Assembly (NCBI RefSeq): GCF_003019035.1
Contig: NZ_CP027447.1
Origin: Escherichia coli
GTDB lineage: Bacteria; Pseudomonadota; Gammaproteobacteria; Enterobacterales; Enterobacteriaceae
Strand: one strand, 5' to 3'
Length of the DNA: 64,000 nt
Position numbers and translations under genes: made by a program. Below the pieces are notes generated by a model, which saw only the letters and a program-made list of their open reading frames with translations, was not told where the DNA came from and ran no database searches. Positions 51,428-59,303 of this stretch are shown one piece after another; position 1 is the stretch's first letter, and each line of letters opens with the position of its first letter.

Positions 51428-51689
51428 TCCGGTGCGCCGTAAAACCCCGTCCTTCAGGGCGGGGATATAAGGCGCGGTTTTGCACCTGACCAGGTGTTTG
51501 CTGTTGTTCAATGTATTGGCGGATGACGGATATTGGCGCACCTCCGCAGCTACTGGCAAAATAGCCAGGACTCCACAAAACGCCTTTGTAGTAATACCTG
51601 ACTGCAATATCTGGTCGATCTCGTCGCAGTAACCTACCCGATACGCCTTTGAGGCTGTTTACCAGACTGGATATCGCCAGTTTGGGAGG

Positions 51690-51917
51690 TTAGTTAATTA
51701 ACAAATGGACGTGATCTGGTTCGCCATCCATTTCAACCAGTTCAGCTTCAAAATCAGCACATACATTTGAAAAGTAAGTGCGTAGTTTTTCTGTCGCGTC
51801 ATGGTCAAAAATCTGGCGTCGGTATCTGGTGACAAAGACCAGATGAACATGCATCAGGAAAACACAATGCCTTCCACGCCGGATATCGGTTTCTTTTTTC
51901 ACAGACCAAAGTATCAT
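51690..51917 (-). pseudogene. insP: IS200-type HUH transposase TnpA, truncated to 75 aa
   Basis: MILWSVKKETDIRRGRHCVFLMHVHLVFVTRYRRQ... has the HxH (HVH) motif but stops at about half normal length, before where the catalytic Tyr normally lies. Confidence 0.7.
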
Positions 51918-51924
51918 TTGACCT

Positions 51925-53133
51925 GTGAAACGATTACAGGCATTTAAATTCCAGTTAAGACCAGGTGGTCAACAGGAGTGTGAAATGAGGCGCTTCGCAG
52001 GCGCATGTCGTTTCGTTTTCAATCGTGCTCTGGCACGTCAGAATGAGAATCATGAGGCCGGTAATAAATACATCCCTTACGGGAAAATGGCTTCCTGGCT
52101 GGTTGAGTGGAAAAATGCCACTGAAACGCAATGGCTTAAAGATTCTCCCTCACAGCCATTGCAACAGTCACTGAAAGACCTTGAGCGGGCTTACAAAAAC
52201 TTCTTCCGGAAGCGGGCTGCTTTTCCCCGATTCAAAAAGCGGGGACAGAATGATGCATTCCGCTACCCGCAGGGCGTTAAGCTCGATCAGGAAAACAGCC
52301 GTATTTTTCTGCCGAAACTGGGCTGGATGCGCTACCGGAATAGCCGTCAGGTCACGGGTGTTGTGAAAAATGTCACTGTCAGCCAGTCCTGCGGTAAGTG
52401 GTACATCAGTATTCAGACAGAAAGTGAAGTATCCACTCCGGCTCACCCTTCAGCATCAATGGTCGGGCTGGATGCTGGCGTGGCTAAACTCGCCACGCTG
52501 TCAGATGGCACAGTCTTTGAGCCTGTAAACAGTTTTCAGAAAAACCAGAAGACGCTGGCGAGACTTCAGCGACAGTTAAGCCGCAAGGTCAAATTCAGCA
52601 ACAACTGGCAGAAGCAGAAACGCAAAATACAGCGACTGCATTCCTGTATCGCAAATATCCGCAGGGACTACCTTCACAAAGTCACAACGGCCGTCAGCAA
52701 AAACCACGCAATGATAGTCATTGAGGATTTGAAGGTCAGCAACATGTCAAAGTCAGCAGCGGGTACGGTCAGCCAGCCGGGGCGCAATGTCCGGGCAAAA
52801 TCAGGTTTAAACCGTTCGATACTGGATCAGGGCTGGTATGAAATGCGCCGCCAGCTTGAGTACAAGCAGCTCTGGCGTGGCGGTCAGGTGCTTGCTGTTC
52901 CGCCAGCGTATACAAGCCAGCGTTGCGCGTACTGTGGTCATACAGCGAAAGAGAACCGCCTGTCACAAAGTAAATTCAGATGCCAGGTATGTGGATATAC
53001 AGCGAACGCCGATGTAAATGGCGCTCGTAACATTTTAGCGGCGGGGCACGCCGTTCTTGCCTGTGGAGAGATGGTGCAGTCAGGCCGCCCGTTGAAGCAG
53101 GAACCCACCGAAATGATTCAGGCGACAGCCTGA
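51925..53133 (+). CDS. insQ: TnpB (OrfB) of IS200/IS605 family, 402-aa frame from GTG
   Basis: ORF track [35 protein letters not shown]...; C-terminal zinc-finger CxxC...CxxC (CAYCGH...[18 protein letters not shown]). Confidence 0.88.
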
Positions 53134-53172
53134 ACGTAGCAGGGATCCACGTCCTTCAGGGCGTGGAGGATG

Positions 53173-54348
53173 TCAATATCGGTTTCTGTCAGCGATTAAA
53201 TTCAACACCACGTAACAAACGCCTCCGGCAATTAATCCCCAAAACGCAGAACCAATCCCGGCCAGCGTCAATCCACTTGCCGTTACCAGAAATGCCACCA
53301 CCGCCGCGTCGCGCTCACGCTCATTATGCAGCGCCTGATACAAACTGCCGCCAATGGTACTCAACAGCGCCAGACCTGCCAGCATCTGGATCCAACTTAC
53401 GGGCAGGGCAGCCATCATCCCGGTAATGGCACTACCAAACAGACCTGCGAGCAAATAGAAAATGCCTGCAACGGCAGCGGCCAGCCAACGTTGATCTTTA
53501 TCCGGATGCGCTTCCGGGCTTTGGCAAATAGCCGCGGTGATTGCCGCAATACCGACGGAATAAACGCCGAAAGGGGAAAAAACCAGTGCCAGCAATCCAG
53601 TAAATACAATTAATGGCGAAACAGGAGCCGAATATCCGGCGGCTTTCATTGCTGCGATACCCGGTGCGTTTTGCGATGCCATCGTCACCAGAAAAAGGGG
53701 GAGTGCAACGCTCAGGCTGTGAGCAAACGAAAAATCAGGGCTAATATAAGTGGGGAGAACGGGTTTAAAGACAACATCAGTTGTGACAACGTCACCTTGC
53801 GCGATAACGATCACGACCCCAATAATCATCGCGGCAATTACCGCATAGCGCGGCGCAACGGCCCTGGTTGCCAGCCATACCAGCAACATACTGCCACACA
53901 ACGTAAATTGACCATCCAGGCTCGCAAACGCCTGTAAACCAAAGCGTAATAAAATCCCGGCAAGCATTGCCGCCGCAAGCGAGTGCGGAATAATGCGCAT
54001 CAGACGAGCAAAGAGTCCCGTTATGCCGCAGAGGACTATTAACGCGTTGGTGACAATAAAAACGCCGATGGTTTCGTTAAGTGTTAGTCCCTGCAATCCG
54101 GTGACCAACAAAGCCGCGCCAGGCGTTGACCATGCGGTGAGAACAGGTACGCGATACCATAATGTCAGAGCCAGCGTACTGACGCCCATTACCAGCCCCA
54201 GCGCCGTCATCCAGCCAGAGATTTGTGCAGTGGTGGCTCCGGCGACAATCGCTGCTTGCCAGATTATTGCCGCTGAACTGGCGTAGCCAATTAATACCGC
54301 CAGAAACCCCGCCAGTAGCGTGGGTGGAGGAATAGAAAACAGACGCAT
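53173..54348 (-). CDS. ydcO: BenE-family transporter YdcO, 391 aa
   Basis: ORF track frame; start at MRLFSIPPPTLLAG with GAGGTG RBS; polytopic membrane protein. Confidence 0.85.
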   Translation of the reverse strand: MRLFSIPPPTLLAGFLAVLIGYASSAAIIWQAAIVAGATTAQISGWMTALGLVMGVSTLALTLWYRVPVLTAWSTPGAALLVTGLQGLTLNETIGVFIVTNALIVLCGITGLFARLMRIIPHSLAAAMLAGILLRFGLQAFASLDGQFTLCGSMLLVWLATRAVAPRYAVIAAMIIGVVIVIAQGDVVTTDVVFKPVLPTYISPDFSFAHSLSVALPLFLVTMASQNAPGIAAMKAAGYSAPVSPLIVFTGLLALVFSPFGVYSVGIAAITAAICQSPEAHPDKDQRWLAAAVAGIFYLLAGLFGSAITGMMAALPVSWIQMLAGLALLSTIGGSLYQALHNERERDAAVVAFLVTASGLTLAGIGSAFWGLIAGGVCYVVLNLIADRNRY

Positions 54349-55048: not shown

Positions 55049-57010
55049 GTGACCGTATCTTCTCATCGTCTTGAACTGTTAAGTCCGGCACGCGATGCCG
55101 CCATTGCCCGCGAAGCTATTTTGCACGGTGCCGATGCTGTTTATATCGGCGGCCCTGGTTTTGGTGCCCGTCATAATGCCAGTAATAGCCTGAAAGATAT
55201 TGCCGAGCTGGTGCCGTTTGCCCATCGTTATGGTGCAAAAATTTTCGTCACGCTTAACACCATTTTGCATGATGATGAGCTGGAACCTGCGCAACGGCTG
55301 ATTACCGACCTCTACCAGACCGGCGTCGATGCGCTGATTGTTCAGGATATGGGGATTCTGGAACTTGATATTCCGCCGATTGAACTGCACGCCAGTACGC
55401 AGTGCGACATTCGCACGGTAGAAAAAGCGAAGTTCCTCTCTGATGTTGGCTTCACGCAGATTGTGCTGGCGCGAGAGCTGAATCTTGAGCAGATCCGCGC
55501 GATTCACCAGGCCACGGACGCGACCATTGAATTCTTTATTCATGGCGCACTGTGCGTGGCCTATTCGGGTCAGTGCTACATTTCTCATGCGCAAACAGGG
55601 CGTAGCGCCAACCGTGGCGATTGCTCGCAGGCGTGCCGTTTGCCATACACATTGAAAGACGATCAGGGGCGGGTGGTTTCCTATGAAAAACATCTGCTGT
55701 CGATGAAAGATAACGATCAGACTGCCAACCTCGGCGCGCTGATTGATGCTGGCGTACGCTCCTTCAAGATTGAAGGGCGTTACAAAGATATGAGCTACGT
55801 GAAGAATATCACCGCCCATTATCGCCAGATGCTGGATGCCATTATTGAAGAACGTGGCGATCTGACGCGTGCTTCATCAGGTCGTACTGAACATTTCTTT
55901 GTTCCATCGACGGAAAAGACTTTCCACCGTGGTAGCACAGATTATTTTGTGAATGCCCGTAAAGGCGATATTGGCGCGTTCGATTCGCCGAAATTTATCG
56001 GCCTGCCGGTGGGCGAAGTATTGAAAGTAGCGAAAGATCATATTGATGTTGCCGTTACCGAGCCACTGGCAAATGGCGATGGCCTGAACGTGATGATTAA
56101 ACGTGAAGTCGTCGGTTTTCGTGCCAATACGGTCGAGAAAACCGGAGAAAATCAGTACCGCGTCTGGCCCAATGAAATGCCAGCAGATTTGCACAAAATT
56201 CGCCCGCATCACCCACTAAACCGTAATCTTGATCATAACTGGCAGCAGGCACTGACAAAAACCTCCAGCGAACGTCGGGTGGCGGTAGACATTGAACTGG
56301 GCGGCTGGCAGGAACAACTGATTCTGACCCTCACCAGTGAAGAGGGTGTCAGCATCACGCATACGCTGGACGGGCAGTTCGACGAAGCCAATAACGCCGA
56401 AAAAGCAATGAACAATCTAAAGGATGGTCTGGCAAAACTGGGGCAAACCATCTATTACGCCCGCGATGTGCAAATTAATTTGCCGGGTGCGCTGTTTGTA
56501 CCAAACAGTCTGTTAAACCAGTTCCGCCGTGAAGCCGCCGACATGCTGGATGCTGCACGTCTTGCCGGTTACCAGCGGGGCAGCCGTAAACCGGTTGCTG
56601 ATCCTGCGCCGGTTTATCCGCAAACGCATCTGAGTTTCCTCGCGAACGTATACAACCAGAAAGCGCGTGAATTTTATCATCGCTATGGTGTGCAACTGAT
56701 TGACGCGGCGTATGAGGCACATGAAGAGAAGGGCGAAGTCCCGGTGATGATCACCAAGCATTGTCTGCGCTTTGCCTTCAATCTGTGCCCGAAACAGGCG
56801 AAAGGCAATATCAAAAGCTGGAAGGCGACGCCAATGCAACTGGTTAACGGCGATGAAGTATTAACGCTAAAGTTTGATTGCCGCCCATGCGAGATGCACG
56901 TCATTGGCAAAATCAAAAATCACATACTGAAAATGCCGTTACCGGGAAGCGTAGTGGCATCCGTAAGTCCGGATGATCTGCTGAAAACATTGCCGAAGCG
57001 AAAAGGGTAA
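55049..57010 (+). CDS. ydcP: Peptidase U32-family protein YdcP (RlhA, 23S rRNA hydroxylation), 653 aa from GTG at 55049
   Basis: ORF track frame 55007-57010; internal GTG chosen to match expected 653 aa; start uncertain. Confidence 0.8.
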   Translation: MTVSSHRLELLSPARDAAIAREAILHGADAVYIGGPGFGARHNASNSLKDIAELVPFAHRYGAKIFVTLNTILHDDELEPAQRLITDLYQTGVDALIVQDMGILELDIPPIELHASTQCDIRTVEKAKFLSDVGFTQIVLARELNLEQIRAIHQATDATIEFFIHGALCVAYSGQCYISHAQTGRSANRGDCSQACRLPYTLKDDQGRVVSYEKHLLSMKDNDQTANLGALIDAGVRSFKIEGRYKDMSYVKNITAHYRQMLDAIIEERGDLTRASSGRTEHFFVPSTEKTFHRGSTDYFVNARKGDIGAFDSPKFIGLPVGEVLKVAKDHIDVAVTEPLANGDGLNVMIKREVVGFRANTVEKTGENQYRVWPNEMPADLHKIRPHHPLNRNLDHNWQQALTKTSSERRVAVDIELGGWQEQLILTLTSEEGVSITHTLDGQFDEANNAEKAMNNLKDGLAKLGQTIYYARDVQINLPGALFVPNSLLNQFRREAADMLDAARLAGYQRGSRKPVADPAPVYPQTHLSFLANVYNQKAREFYHRYGVQLIDAAYEAHEEKGEVPVMITKHCLRFAFNLCPKQAKGNIKSWKATPMQLVNGDEVLTLKFDCRPCEMHVIGKIKNHILKMPLPGSVVASVSPDDLLKTLPKRKG

Positions 57011-57101
57011 AACGCCAGTTTTCGGGTTACTCACCACTCATCAAATCTGCATGATATTGCCTGGCGGGTAAGGCGTCATGCCGCATCCGGCAACAAATGA
57101 C

Positions 57102-57332
57102 TCAACGCTGTCCCGCTTCTGGTTTGCGCGATTTTTGCCAGTAAAAATGCTCGCGCAAACCTTCCGCCGACTCTTCCGCCACAGCACGCAATTCATCGCT
57201 GTCCGCTTCATGACGCAGCTGATGATCCACATTCTTTACCCACATAAATTCATGTCCTTTGTGCCCTGCCATGAGTTGTCCTGAGAACAGTGCACACGTT
57301 AATAAGACAACCGATAACGCCTTCGAAAACAT
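57102..57332 (-). CDS. yncJ: DUF2554-family small secreted protein YncJ, 76 aa
   Basis: ORF track; signal peptide MFSKALSVVLLTCALFSGQLMA. Confidence 0.85.
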   Translation of the reverse strand: MFSKALSVVLLTCALFSGQLMAGHKGHEFMWVKNVDHQLRHEADSDELRAVAEESAEGLREHFYWQKSRKPEAGQR

Positions 57333-57652
57333 CCCGCCACCTTTTTCTAACCTTTTGCCGCTATGATGCCAATCGTTTCTTGAGGTTATTATTCAGTTTT
57401 GCAAATTAGCGCAAAGAAATTCTGGAATCTTCCTTCCTGATTTTGCATTGCATTCTGCCGTTGCGGCGATTTAGTGCTATTTTCGAGCAAATTACACACG
57501 GAGGTAAAAAAATCGACGCCGTCCAGCTCGCGGCTAAGGCGCTTGGCAAAGAGTTATCACTGGTGATGGTTTAATTACAGTTAACGAAAAGTTGTCATTT
57601 TTAACAACTGATATAGACTGCCGAATCATCTGCACATAATTACGATTCGATA

Positions 57653-59059
57653 ATGAAAAAATACCAGCAGCTTGCAGAACAATTACGCGAGCAGATTGCG
57701 TCGGGTATCTGGCAACCCGGCGATCGTTTGCCTTCGTTGCGTGACCAGGTGGCGCTTTCTGGCATGAGCTTTATGACCGTGAGCCATGCCTATCAGTTGC
57801 TCGAAAGTCAGGGATATATTATCGCGCGACCGCAGTCGGGTTATTACGTTGCGCCACAGGCAATAAAAATGCCGAAAGCGCCAGTCATTCCAGTCACTCG
57901 AGATGAAGCAGTCGATATCAACACCTATATTTTTGATATGTTGCAGGCCAGTCGCGATCCGTCGGTAGTTCCGTTTGCCTCGGCCTTTCCCGACCCGCGA
58001 CTTTTCCCCCTCCAACAACTAAACCGCTCGCTGGCGCAGGTAAGCAAAACCGCCACAGCGATGAGCGTGATTGAAAACTTACCGCCAGGAAACGCAGAAC
58101 TGCGTCAGGCTATTGCTCGTCGCTATGCCTTACAGGGCATCACTATTTCTCCAGATGAAATTGTCATTACCGCCGGGGCGTTAGAGGCATTAAACCTCAG
58201 TTTGCAAGTGGTAACTGAACCGGGCGATTGGGTGATAGTAGAGAATCCTTGTTTCTACGGCGCTTTGCAGGCGCTGGAGCGGTTACGGCTGAAGGCGTTA
58301 TCGGTGGCGACGGACGTTAAAGAAGGGATCGATCTTCAGGCGCTGGAACTGGCGTTGCAGGAGTATCCGGTGAAAGCGTGCTGGCTGATGACTAATAGCC
58401 AGAATCCACTCGGATTTACCTTAACACCGCAAAAAAAAGCACAACTGGTGGCGTTGCTCAATCAGTACAACGTAACGTTGATTGAAGATGACGTTTACAG
58501 CGAACTTTATTTTGGACGGGAAAAACCGCTGCCTGCGAAAGCGTGGGATCACCACGATGGTGTTTTGCATTGCTCTTCGTTTTCGAAATGTCTGGTGCCT
58601 GGTTTTCGTATTGGTTGGGTCGCCGCCGGAAAACATGCACGTAAAATTCAACGCTTGCAGTTGATGAGTACGCTTTCCACCAGCTCACCGATGCAGCTTG
58701 CGCTGGTGGATTACCTTTCTACTCGCCGATACGATGCTCATCTTCGTCGTCTGCGTCGCCAGCTTGCGGAACGTAAACAACGCGCCTGGCAGGCTTTGCT
58801 GCGTTATCTGCCTGCGGAAGTCAAAATTCATCACAATGACAGCGGTTATTTTCTCTGGCTGGAGCTCCCCGAGCCGTTAGATGCAGGAGAATTAAGCCTG
58901 GTGGCACTGACGCATCATATCAGTATTGCGCCGGGTAAAATGTTTTCTACCGGTGAAAACTGGTCACGTTTTTTTCGTTTTAATACCGCGTGGCAGTGGG
59001 GAGAACGTGAAGAACAGGCGGTAAAACAATTAGGCAAACTTATTCAAGAACGGCTGTAA
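57653..59059 (+). CDS. ydcR: GntR/MocR-family regulator fused to aminotransferase-like domain, 468 aa
   Basis: ORF track; N-terminal GntR HTH, C-terminal PLP-fold domain. Confidence 0.9.
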   Translation: MKKYQQLAEQLREQIASGIWQPGDRLPSLRDQVALSGMSFMTVSHAYQLLESQGYIIARPQSGYYVAPQAIKMPKAPVIPVTRDEAVDINTYIFDMLQASRDPSVVPFASAFPDPRLFPLQQLNRSLAQVSKTATAMSVIENLPPGNAELRQAIARRYALQGITISPDEIVITAGALEALNLSLQVVTEPGDWVIVENPCFYGALQALERLRLKALSVATDVKEGIDLQALELALQEYPVKACWLMTNSQNPLGFTLTPQKKAQLVALLNQYNVTLIEDDVYSELYFGREKPLPAKAWDHHDGVLHCSSFSKCLVPGFRIGWVAAGKHARKIQRLQLMSTLSTSSPMQLALVDYLSTRRYDAHLRRLRRQLAERKQRAWQALLRYLPAEVKIHHNDSGYFLWLELPEPLDAGELSLVALTHHISIAPGKMFSTGENWSRFFRFNTAWQWGEREEQAVKQLGKLIQERL

Positions 59060-59303
59060 TAGCGTTTAATTTAATTCCTCTCAGGATGGGTAATATGAAT
59101 TTCGAATAGCAGTCATATTTCCTAACTCCTTGTCTATACTCCAGAAGATAACCTTACAGAGGGCATAATGCGCGGTAGCTCACAACCTGATTAAATTTTC
59201 TCAGGGGCGAAGGTGTGCCTGCTAGCCGCCGTCTATGGTTAAACAAGGAGATATTTTTACGGCACGGCGGCTGAACAATTAATTACGACAGGAGTAAGAC
59301 CTT

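What the first reader, a model, noticed from the sequence alone, without database searches (positions are those of the whole stretch)
57333..57652. Only 320 bp between yncJ and ydcR: no hicAB toxin-antitoxin pair
In K-12 as I recall it, hicA and hicB lie between yncJ and ydcR. Here the interval is too short to hold them and contains no HicA-like frame. It does contain GGAGG followed by an ATG-less 21-codon frame (...IDAVQLAAKALGKELSLVMV), which may be a remnant or a leader. This is consistent with hicAB being a small acquired islet.
Basis: partly seen in the sequence, partly recalled or inferred. Interest (0 to 1): 0.3.

Follow-up and report, generated by a model that had tools for sequence, protein, structure and literature searches.

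The report
Deletion scar of hicAB toxin-antitoxin locus
This E. coli strain has lost the HicA toxin gene and most of the HicB antitoxin gene through a 618-base deletion that left the last 20 codons of hicB behind, which is ordinary decay of a toxin-antitoxin locus and is already marked as a pseudogene in the public annotation.

Summary
yncJ (57102-57332, minus strand) and ydcR (57653-59059) are 320 bp apart and no hicA or hicB lies between them. In K-12 and about 78% of complete E. coli genomes, hicA-hicB occupy this spot.

The interval is not an unoccupied site. It is a full hicAB locus minus 618 bp. The junction is at 57508/57509 (GGAGGTAA[A]AAAATCGAC, 1-nt microhomology).

The window is 100% identical to strain SCU-301, where RefSeq already annotates this remnant as a HicB pseudogene. 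The same junction occurs in 64 of 5,426 complete genomes. A different 445-bp deletion with the same left end occurs in 1,093, and about 887 carry a 22-bp frameshift in hicA.

Related species show hicAB next to ydcR in all four Escherichia representatives and in the Citrobacter freundii complex, but not in Klebsiella or Enterobacter. The "acquired islet" idea therefore holds only on a deep timescale and does not explain this strain.

Two details remain unexplained. The identical junction sits on three flanking haplotypes. Two different deletions share a left end inside the presumed HicB operator palindrome.

Interest is low.

The parts
57102..57332 (-). yncJ (DUF2554/YncJ family, 76 aa), intact left neighbour
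   Evidence: ORF. Annotated as yncJ, WP_000491567.1, in SCU-301 and relatives.
57333..57508 (+). Retained yncJ-hicA spacer, the region upstream of hicAB. It includes GGAGG (57500-57504) and the left arm (GTAAA, 57504-57508) of the palindrome GTAAAC-N6-GTTTAC, presumed to be the HicB operator hicO. By inference it also holds the upstream P1 promoter.
   Evidence: Collinear with full alleles and identical to FDAARGOS_497 and LR-28. The palindrome is conserved upstream of hicA in Citrobacter. The P1-upstream/P2-operator layout comes from PMC11594946 and PMC7167474. P1 was not mapped here.
57508..57509 (.). Deletion junction. 618 bp are missing relative to full alleles: the right half of the operator with P2, all of hicA, and hicB codons 1-118. 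There is 1 nt (A) of microhomology.
   Evidence: Alignment A1. The BLAST HSPs abut and overlap at 57508. The same junction is found in 64 of 5,426 genomes.
57509..57574 (+). hicB 3' remnant: the last 20 codons (57512-57571) plus the stop codon. It has no start codon and no complete domain.
   Evidence: 66/66 nt identical to the hicB 3' end, and the translation equals HicB residues 119-138. No Pfam hit. RefSeq annotates it as a pseudogene, 'HicB family antitoxin, missing N-terminus', at positions corresponding to window 57497-57574.
57575..57652 (+). Unaltered hicB-ydcR spacer with sigma-70-like sites (57592-57619, 57601-57629). It is homologous to the ydcR-proximal promoter region of Citrobacter genomes that lack hicAB.
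   Evidence: These are consensus matches only; function was not shown.
57653..59059 (+). ydcR (MocR-type PLP-dependent regulator), intact right neighbour
   Evidence: ORF. Annotated as ydcR, WP_000760633.1.

Best explanation
The 320-bp yncJ-ydcR interval is the scar of a 618-bp deletion in a formerly complete hicAB type II toxin-antitoxin locus.

What was lost: the right half of the presumed HicB operator with the autoregulated P2 promoter, the whole hicA toxin gene, and hicB codons 1-118.

What remains: the upstream spacer up to GGAGGTAA(A) is now fused to the last 20 codons of hicB. The ydcR promoter region and both neighbouring genes are untouched. The remnant has no start codon and no complete domain, so the locus is dead. 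No HicA or HicB is made from it.

Inferred, not shown:
- The deletion arose once in the lineage that carries it, possibly from the common 445-bp-deleted allele by a second 173-bp loss.
- Flanking sequence in this strain was later overwritten by recombination from ST648-type hicAB-positive donors, with conversion tracts stopping at the indel.
- Transcription from the surviving upstream promoter may now read across the scar into ydcR.

The confidence given (0.93) is for the deletion-scar reading itself; the single-origin-plus-recombination history is held at about 0.65-0.7.
For: Deletion scar:
- The alignment with full alleles shows one clean 618-bp gap and identical flanks.
- The remnant matches hicB at 66/66 nt and equals the HicB C-terminus.
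- PGAP independently annotates the remnant as a HicB pseudogene in the identical genome SCU-301.

Census of 5,426 complete genomes:
- The hicA/5'-hicB segment is present in 4,256.
- The 445-bp deletion is in 1,093.
- This junction is in 64.
- The sum is 5,413 and the locus is single-copy (4,257 places in 4,256 records).

Ancestral presence: hicAB lies next to ydcR in all four Escherichia species representatives and in several Citrobacter.

Single origin:
- Apart from SCU-301 itself, the 29 best 20-kb matches to the window all carry the short allele.
- No short allele was seen among the sampled genomes of other lineages, although 4,256 genomes still carry the segment and could in principle lose it.

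Link to the 445-bp allele:
- The common short haplotype shares left-flank SNPs 57064C, 57410A and 57490C with 445-bp-deleted alleles.
- No full allele among about 4,250 carries both 57410A and 57490C; SCU-109, the one of the eight near-matches checked, has 57490C only.

Recombination: the region is a mosaic.
Against: Origin of this strain's copy:
- The window's flanks are identical to hicAB-positive genomes. LR-28 shows 0 SNPs over 56116-59161, and ST648-type genomes are 99.9% identical.
- The same flanks differ by about 2% from the other 62 short alleles.
- The haplotype switches lie within 18 and 29 bp of the junction.
- That pattern is also what an independent, identical deletion would give.

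Other limits:
- Nothing was measured on expression. P1 was not mapped in the sequence.
- The rest of the SCU-301 genome could not be searched for other HicAB paralogues.
Confidence: 0.93

Rival explanations
1. Independent recurrence. The 618-bp deletion arose anew in a hicAB-positive ST648-type haplotype, because the operator palindrome or the sequence around it is a deletion hot spot. This strain's scar would then be a separate event from the 62 other short alleles.
For: The flanks are identical to full alleles, with LR-28 at 0 SNPs over 3 kb. One junction sits on three flank haplotypes, with switches 18 and 29 bp from it. The 445-bp and 618-bp deletions can share the same left bond, at the end of the left arm of GTAAAC-N6-GTTTAC.
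Against: There is only 1 nt of microhomology and no flanking repeat that would make the event deterministic. All 64 carriers sit in one lineage, although 4,256 genomes of many lineages keep the segment. Citrobacter partial deletions use different left ends. The region is demonstrably mosaic.
Confidence: 0.25
2. Unoccupied ancestral site. This lineage never had hicAB, and the interval is the pre-insertion state of an acquired islet.
For: hicAB is absent upstream of ydcR in Klebsiella, Enterobacter and some Citrobacter. In Citrobacter it is flanked by a 15-nt direct repeat, so it was inserted at some point.
Against: The interval contains 66 nt of hicB coding sequence in the correct position and orientation, identical to full alleles. 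Empty Citrobacter sites have no such tail. All four Escherichia species representatives carry hicAB.
Confidence: 0.01
3. The GGAGG plus 20-codon frame is a functional leader peptide or small protein, perhaps started at AUC or at the upstream TTG of the 43-codon ORF 57443-57574.
For: A strong Shine-Dalgarno-like GGAGG lies 7 nt upstream of an in-frame ATC. A TTG-initiated 43-aa ORF exists.
Against: There is no canonical start codon at the right spacing. The frame exists only as the tail of hicB. It has no Pfam match and covers only the last 16 of the roughly 47 residues of the helix-turn-helix domain. The fusion occurs in 1.2% of genomes.
Confidence: 0.03
4. Assembly artefact: hicAB was collapsed out of the assembly.
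For: None specific.
Against: The same junction is found in 64 independently assembled complete genomes. The deleted segment contains no repeat that could collapse.
Confidence: 0.01

Closest known systems
E. coli K-12 hicAB (HicA mRNA interferase toxin and HicB antitoxin; promoters P1 with CRP-S/Sxy and P2 with the hicO operator)
   Same: Same chromosomal position between yncJ and ydcR. Same upstream spacer, same hicB 3' end and same hicB-ydcR spacer.
   Different: The window lacks hicA, HicB residues 1-118, the right half of the operator palindrome and P2. Nothing functional remains.
The 445-bp-deleted hicAB allele of B2/ST131-type E. coli, annotated as a hicB pseudogene or 'HTH domain-containing protein'
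   Same: Same left breakpoint (after GGAGGTAAA), loss of hicA, and retention of the hicB 3' end. The common short haplotype shares its flank SNPs.
   Different: That allele keeps 78 codons, including a complete HTH_3 domain, and is found in 1,093 genomes. The window keeps only 20 codons, and its allele is found in 64.
[quoted passage not shown]
   Same: A conserved location with deletion or frameshift variants that remove the toxin. The same locus has at least four routes of loss: a 22-bp frameshift, the 445-bp and 618-bp deletions, and an rlhA-to-ydcR deletion.
   Different: The review names ccdO157 as its worked example of decay. I found no paper describing the hicAB breakpoints themselves, though only two literature searches touched on this.

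Membership tests
HicAB type II toxin-antitoxin system (functional member) | hicA toxin gene (Pfam PF07927) | tested here: not met
   tblastn with HicA finds nothing in the interval or elsewhere in the 64-kb window. HicA from a full allele does hit PF07927.
HicAB type II toxin-antitoxin system (functional member) | HicB N-terminal toxin-neutralising domain (PF15919, residues 3-67) | tested here: not met
   Codons 1-118 are deleted. The remnant ORF has no Pfam hit.
HicAB type II toxin-antitoxin system (functional member) | HicB C-terminal helix-turn-helix DNA-binding domain (PF01381, residues 88-134) | tested here: not met
   Only residues 119-138 remain, and they give no hit.
HicAB type II toxin-antitoxin system (functional member) | Autoregulated promoter with the palindromic operator | tested here: not met
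   Only the left arm (GTAAA) of GTAAAC-N6-GTTTAC survives. That this palindrome is hicO is inferred from its conservation and from the literature description.
hicB pseudogene / deletion remnant of the yncJ-ydcR hicAB locus | Sequence homologous to part of hicB, at the orthologous position and in the same orientation | tested here: met
   66/66 nt identity and collinear flanks. PGAP calls it a pseudogene.
hicB pseudogene / deletion remnant of the yncJ-ydcR hicAB locus | Close relatives carry the intact gene pair with otherwise identical flanks | tested here: met
   LR-28 has 0 SNPs over 56116-59161 and FDAARGOS_497 has 1 SNP over 55453-58057; both carry hicAB.
Unoccupied insertion site of a genomic islet | No islet-derived sequence, and a single copy of the target sequence | tested here: not met
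   The hicB tail is present. True empty sites in Citrobacter amalonaticus/sedlakii-type genomes look different.

The most novel reading that the evidence does not exclude
The left arm of the HicB operator palindrome is a preferred breakpoint. On this reading it repeatedly produces nucleotide-identical or left-end-identical deletions of the toxin gene in unrelated haplotypes, making toxin-antitoxin loss semi-deterministic. It would account for one junction on three flank haplotypes and for the shared left end of the 445-bp and 618-bp deletions.
Probability: 0.1. Interest if true: 0.4.

Novelty: already known. Interest (0 to 1): 0.12.

Why it matters
It matters little for biology at large. The result records that strain SCU-301 and 63 other complete genomes lack HicAB at the canonical locus. 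It also shows that hicA is absent or broken in about 38% of complete E. coli genomes, by at least four independent routes, in line with the published view that chromosomal toxin-antitoxin loci decay.

For annotation, the point is practical: a short intergenic gap is not evidence of an empty islet site unless remnants have been excluded.

The only open curiosity is why haplotype switches hug the deletion junction and why two deletions share a left end in the operator.

Tried and rejected
- Junction count by megablast. A 70-bp megablast search found only 3 genomes. This is an undercount, because the A-run is masked and no 28-mer seed survives the flank SNPs. blastn with 11-mers gave 64.
- Flanking direct repeats in E. 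coli that would mark islet ends or mediate excision. The best local alignment of the hicA-upstream region against the hicB-ydcR spacer scores no better than shuffles (263 of 500 reach it). Only Citrobacter shows a significant 15-nt repeat.
- Long inverted repeats near the breakpoints (I1 and I25). Their geometry does not predict the observed junctions.
- Rejected by eye: IS200/IS605-type TTAC cleavage, and a XerCD dif-like site at the palindrome. The sequence matches are poor or the orientation is wrong.
- An upstream 54-codon ORF behind GGAGG in full alleles. Its Shine-Dalgarno sequence, and in some genomes its ATG, are not conserved in Citrobacter, so it is probably spurious.
- Locating the CRP-S site of P1 in the retained spacer by eye gave no convincing match. 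The primary paper (Turnbull and Gerdes 2017) is not held.
- Rfam scan of 56900-57900 gave only a chance snoRNA hit, E = 0.2.
- A common left breakpoint in Citrobacter partial deletions was not found. L018-type alleles use a CATGCGA repeat instead.

Full report
**Observation.**
The ORF list and sequence place yncJ at 57102-57332 on the minus strand and ydcR at 57653-59059 on the plus strand. They are separated by exactly 320 bp. GGAGG sits at 57500-57504. The frame 57512-57574 reads IDAVQLAAKALGKELSLVMV* and has no ATG. tblastn with HicA and HicB against the whole 64-kb window returns only this tail (E = 6e-9) and nothing for HicA.

**What the interval is.**
I searched the region against 5,426 complete E. 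coli genomes. Nearly all match, but most do so in two pieces separated by extra DNA. I then aligned the window with two full alleles (FDAARGOS_497 and a K-12 type), an intermediate allele (Ecol_244) and another short allele (STLEFF_29). The window shows a single 618-bp gap.
- The left edge is after GGAGGTAA(A) and the right edge is inside hicB before AAAATCGAC. One A is ambiguous, so there is 1 nt of microhomology.
- Window 57509-57574 is 66/66 nt identical to the 3' end of hicB. Its translation equals HicB residues 119-138.
- Pfam places the HicB antitoxin domain at residues 3-67 and the helix-turn-helix at 88-134. The remnant matches neither.
- Rfam finds nothing credible.
- The window is 100.0% identical over 20 kb to strain SCU-301. 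RefSeq annotates that genome's remnant as [quoted passage not shown].

The feature is therefore a known, annotated pseudogene remnant.

**What was deleted.**
According to the literature, hicAB has two promoters.
- An upstream promoter, P1, carries a CRP-S motif and is stimulated by Sxy.
- A downstream promoter, P2, is repressed by HicB at an inverted-repeat operator, and its transcript starts at the hicA ribosome-binding site.

Just upstream of hicA lies the palindrome GTAAAC-N6-GTTTAC. It is conserved upstream of hicA in Citrobacter, so I take it to be that operator; this is an inference. The deletion starts at the end of its left arm. It removes the rest of the operator, P2, hicA and hicB codons 1-118. 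The 78-bp hicB-ydcR spacer, with its sigma-70-like sites, is untouched. No terminator-like site lies between the scar and ydcR, so read-through from P1 is possible but untested.

**Census of 5,426 complete genomes.**

| State of the locus | Genomes |
|---|---|
| hicA plus 5'-hicB segment present | 4,256 |
| of these, 22-bp deletion in hicA (frameshift; flanked by a TGCG repeat) | about 887 |
| 445-bp deletion, "mid" allele (hicA and hicB codons 1-60 lost) | 1,093 |
| 618-bp deletion, this junction | 64 |

These classes sum to 5,413. The locus is single-copy (4,257 places in 4,256 records), and rare larger deletions also exist. The toxin gene is thus absent or broken in roughly 38% of genomes. 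This fits published accounts of toxin-antitoxin decay in E. coli.

**The islet idea.**
I anchored on ydcR in one genome per species.
- hicA-hicB lie directly upstream of ydcR in all four Escherichia representatives, one of them with a frameshifted hicA.
- The pair is also there in several species of the Citrobacter freundii complex. Other members of that complex carry partial hicB remnants from independent deletions.
- Citrobacter amalonaticus/sedlakii-type genomes, Klebsiella, Enterobacter and others have no hicAB there.
- In Citrobacter the cassette is flanked by the direct repeat TTAACCATAACAGTT (0 of 500 shuffles). This repeat is single-copy in empty sites.
- In E. coli no significant flanking repeat remains.

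hicAB is therefore an old insertion into the ydcR promoter region, and its presence is ancestral for Escherichia. The window's state is a secondary loss.

**Origin of this strain's allele.**
- Apart from SCU-301 itself, the 29 best 20-kb matches to the window all carry the short allele, so the carriers form one lineage.
- Sixty-two of the 64 share one flank haplotype, here called S. Near the junction, S resembles mid alleles of B2 strains.
- No full allele among about 4,250 carries both S left-flank SNPs 57410A and 57490C. SCU-109, the one of the eight single-mismatch genomes that I checked, has 57490C only. This suggests the short allele came from a mid allele by a further 173-bp loss.
- The window differs from S. 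From about 55.4 to 58.1 kb it carries an ST648-type haplotype, here called W.
- W is identical to hicAB-positive genomes. LR-28 has 0 SNPs over 56116-59161, and FDAARGOS_497 has 1 SNP over 55453-58057.
- GF131, a sister strain, is W on the left of the junction and S on the right. The switches lie within 18 bp (57490) and 29 bp (57538) of the junction.

I favour one origin followed by recombination tracts that end at the indel (about 0.65 to 0.7). The reasons are the single lineage, the lack of any repeat that would make the deletion deterministic, and the evident mosaicism. An independent identical deletion remains possible (about 0.25).

The mid and short deletions can share the very same left bond at the operator's left arm. 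The chance of that is about 1-2% if left ends were uniform over the roughly 220-bp spacer. I could not explain it. Citrobacter deletions do not share a left end.

**Verdict.**
The feature is an ordinary, already annotated deletion scar of a well-known toxin-antitoxin locus.

Noticed in passing
L002:1979-2215 (Ecol_244) and L008:2831-3067; not in the window: The 445-bp-deleted allele is present in 1,093 of 5,426 genomes, including ST131, NC101 and Nissle-type strains. It keeps a 66-aa frame with a complete HTH_3 domain (E = 2e-8), and some records annotate it as a 'helix-turn-helix domain-containing protein'. It could be an orphan HicB DNA-binding domain.
   Followed up: partly
L011:2022-2176 (2014C-4135); not in the window: About 887 genomes carry a 22-bp deletion inside hicA, flanked by a TGCG direct repeat. 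It frameshifts the toxin gene while hicB stays intact. RefSeq annotates it as an 'mRNA interferase' pseudogene.
   Followed up: partly
window 51429-53176: An IS200/IS605-family element lies between ydcL and ydcO. Its tnpA has an internal stop and its insQ/tnpB is intact. It is absent from FDAARGOS_497 but shared with STLEFF_29, GF131, strain 20 and LR-28.
   Followed up: no
window about 55450-58060: This is a recombination patch. The window is nearly identical to ST648-type genomes here (1 SNP against FDAARGOS_497) but about 2% different from its otherwise closest relatives. Further mosaic blocks lie to the right, at 59.8-60.2 kb and from 61.1 kb onward.
   Followed up: partly
L010:1480-4398 (FDAARGOS_943): A larger deletion joins a truncated rlhA directly to a 5'-shortened ydcR. 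It removes yncJ and hicAB altogether.
   Followed up: no
L016-L033 (Citrobacter), upstream of ydcR: Citrobacter has about 2.9 kb between yncJ and ydcR. By eye, the gene nearest ydcR begins MFGLDAFHLARIQF, which resembles a cytochrome bd-type oxidase subunit I. Several species show independent hicAB decay states: L018, L017 and L031 keep only a hicB tail, L025 and L027 have lost hicA, and L019 and L022 have internal deletions.
   Followed up: partly
L013:3285-3457 (Escherichia sp. E1V33): hicA matches in two overlapping frames (residues 1-44 and 39-58). This indicates yet another independent frameshift of the toxin gene, next to an intact hicB.
   Followed up: no
L001:1982-2146 (full alleles); its start region is deleted in the window: In full alleles GGAGG is followed 9 nt later by an ATG that opens a 54-codon frame overlapping hicA out of frame. 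The Shine-Dalgarno sequence, and in some genomes the ATG, are not conserved in Citrobacter, so the frame is probably not a gene.
   Followed up: partly
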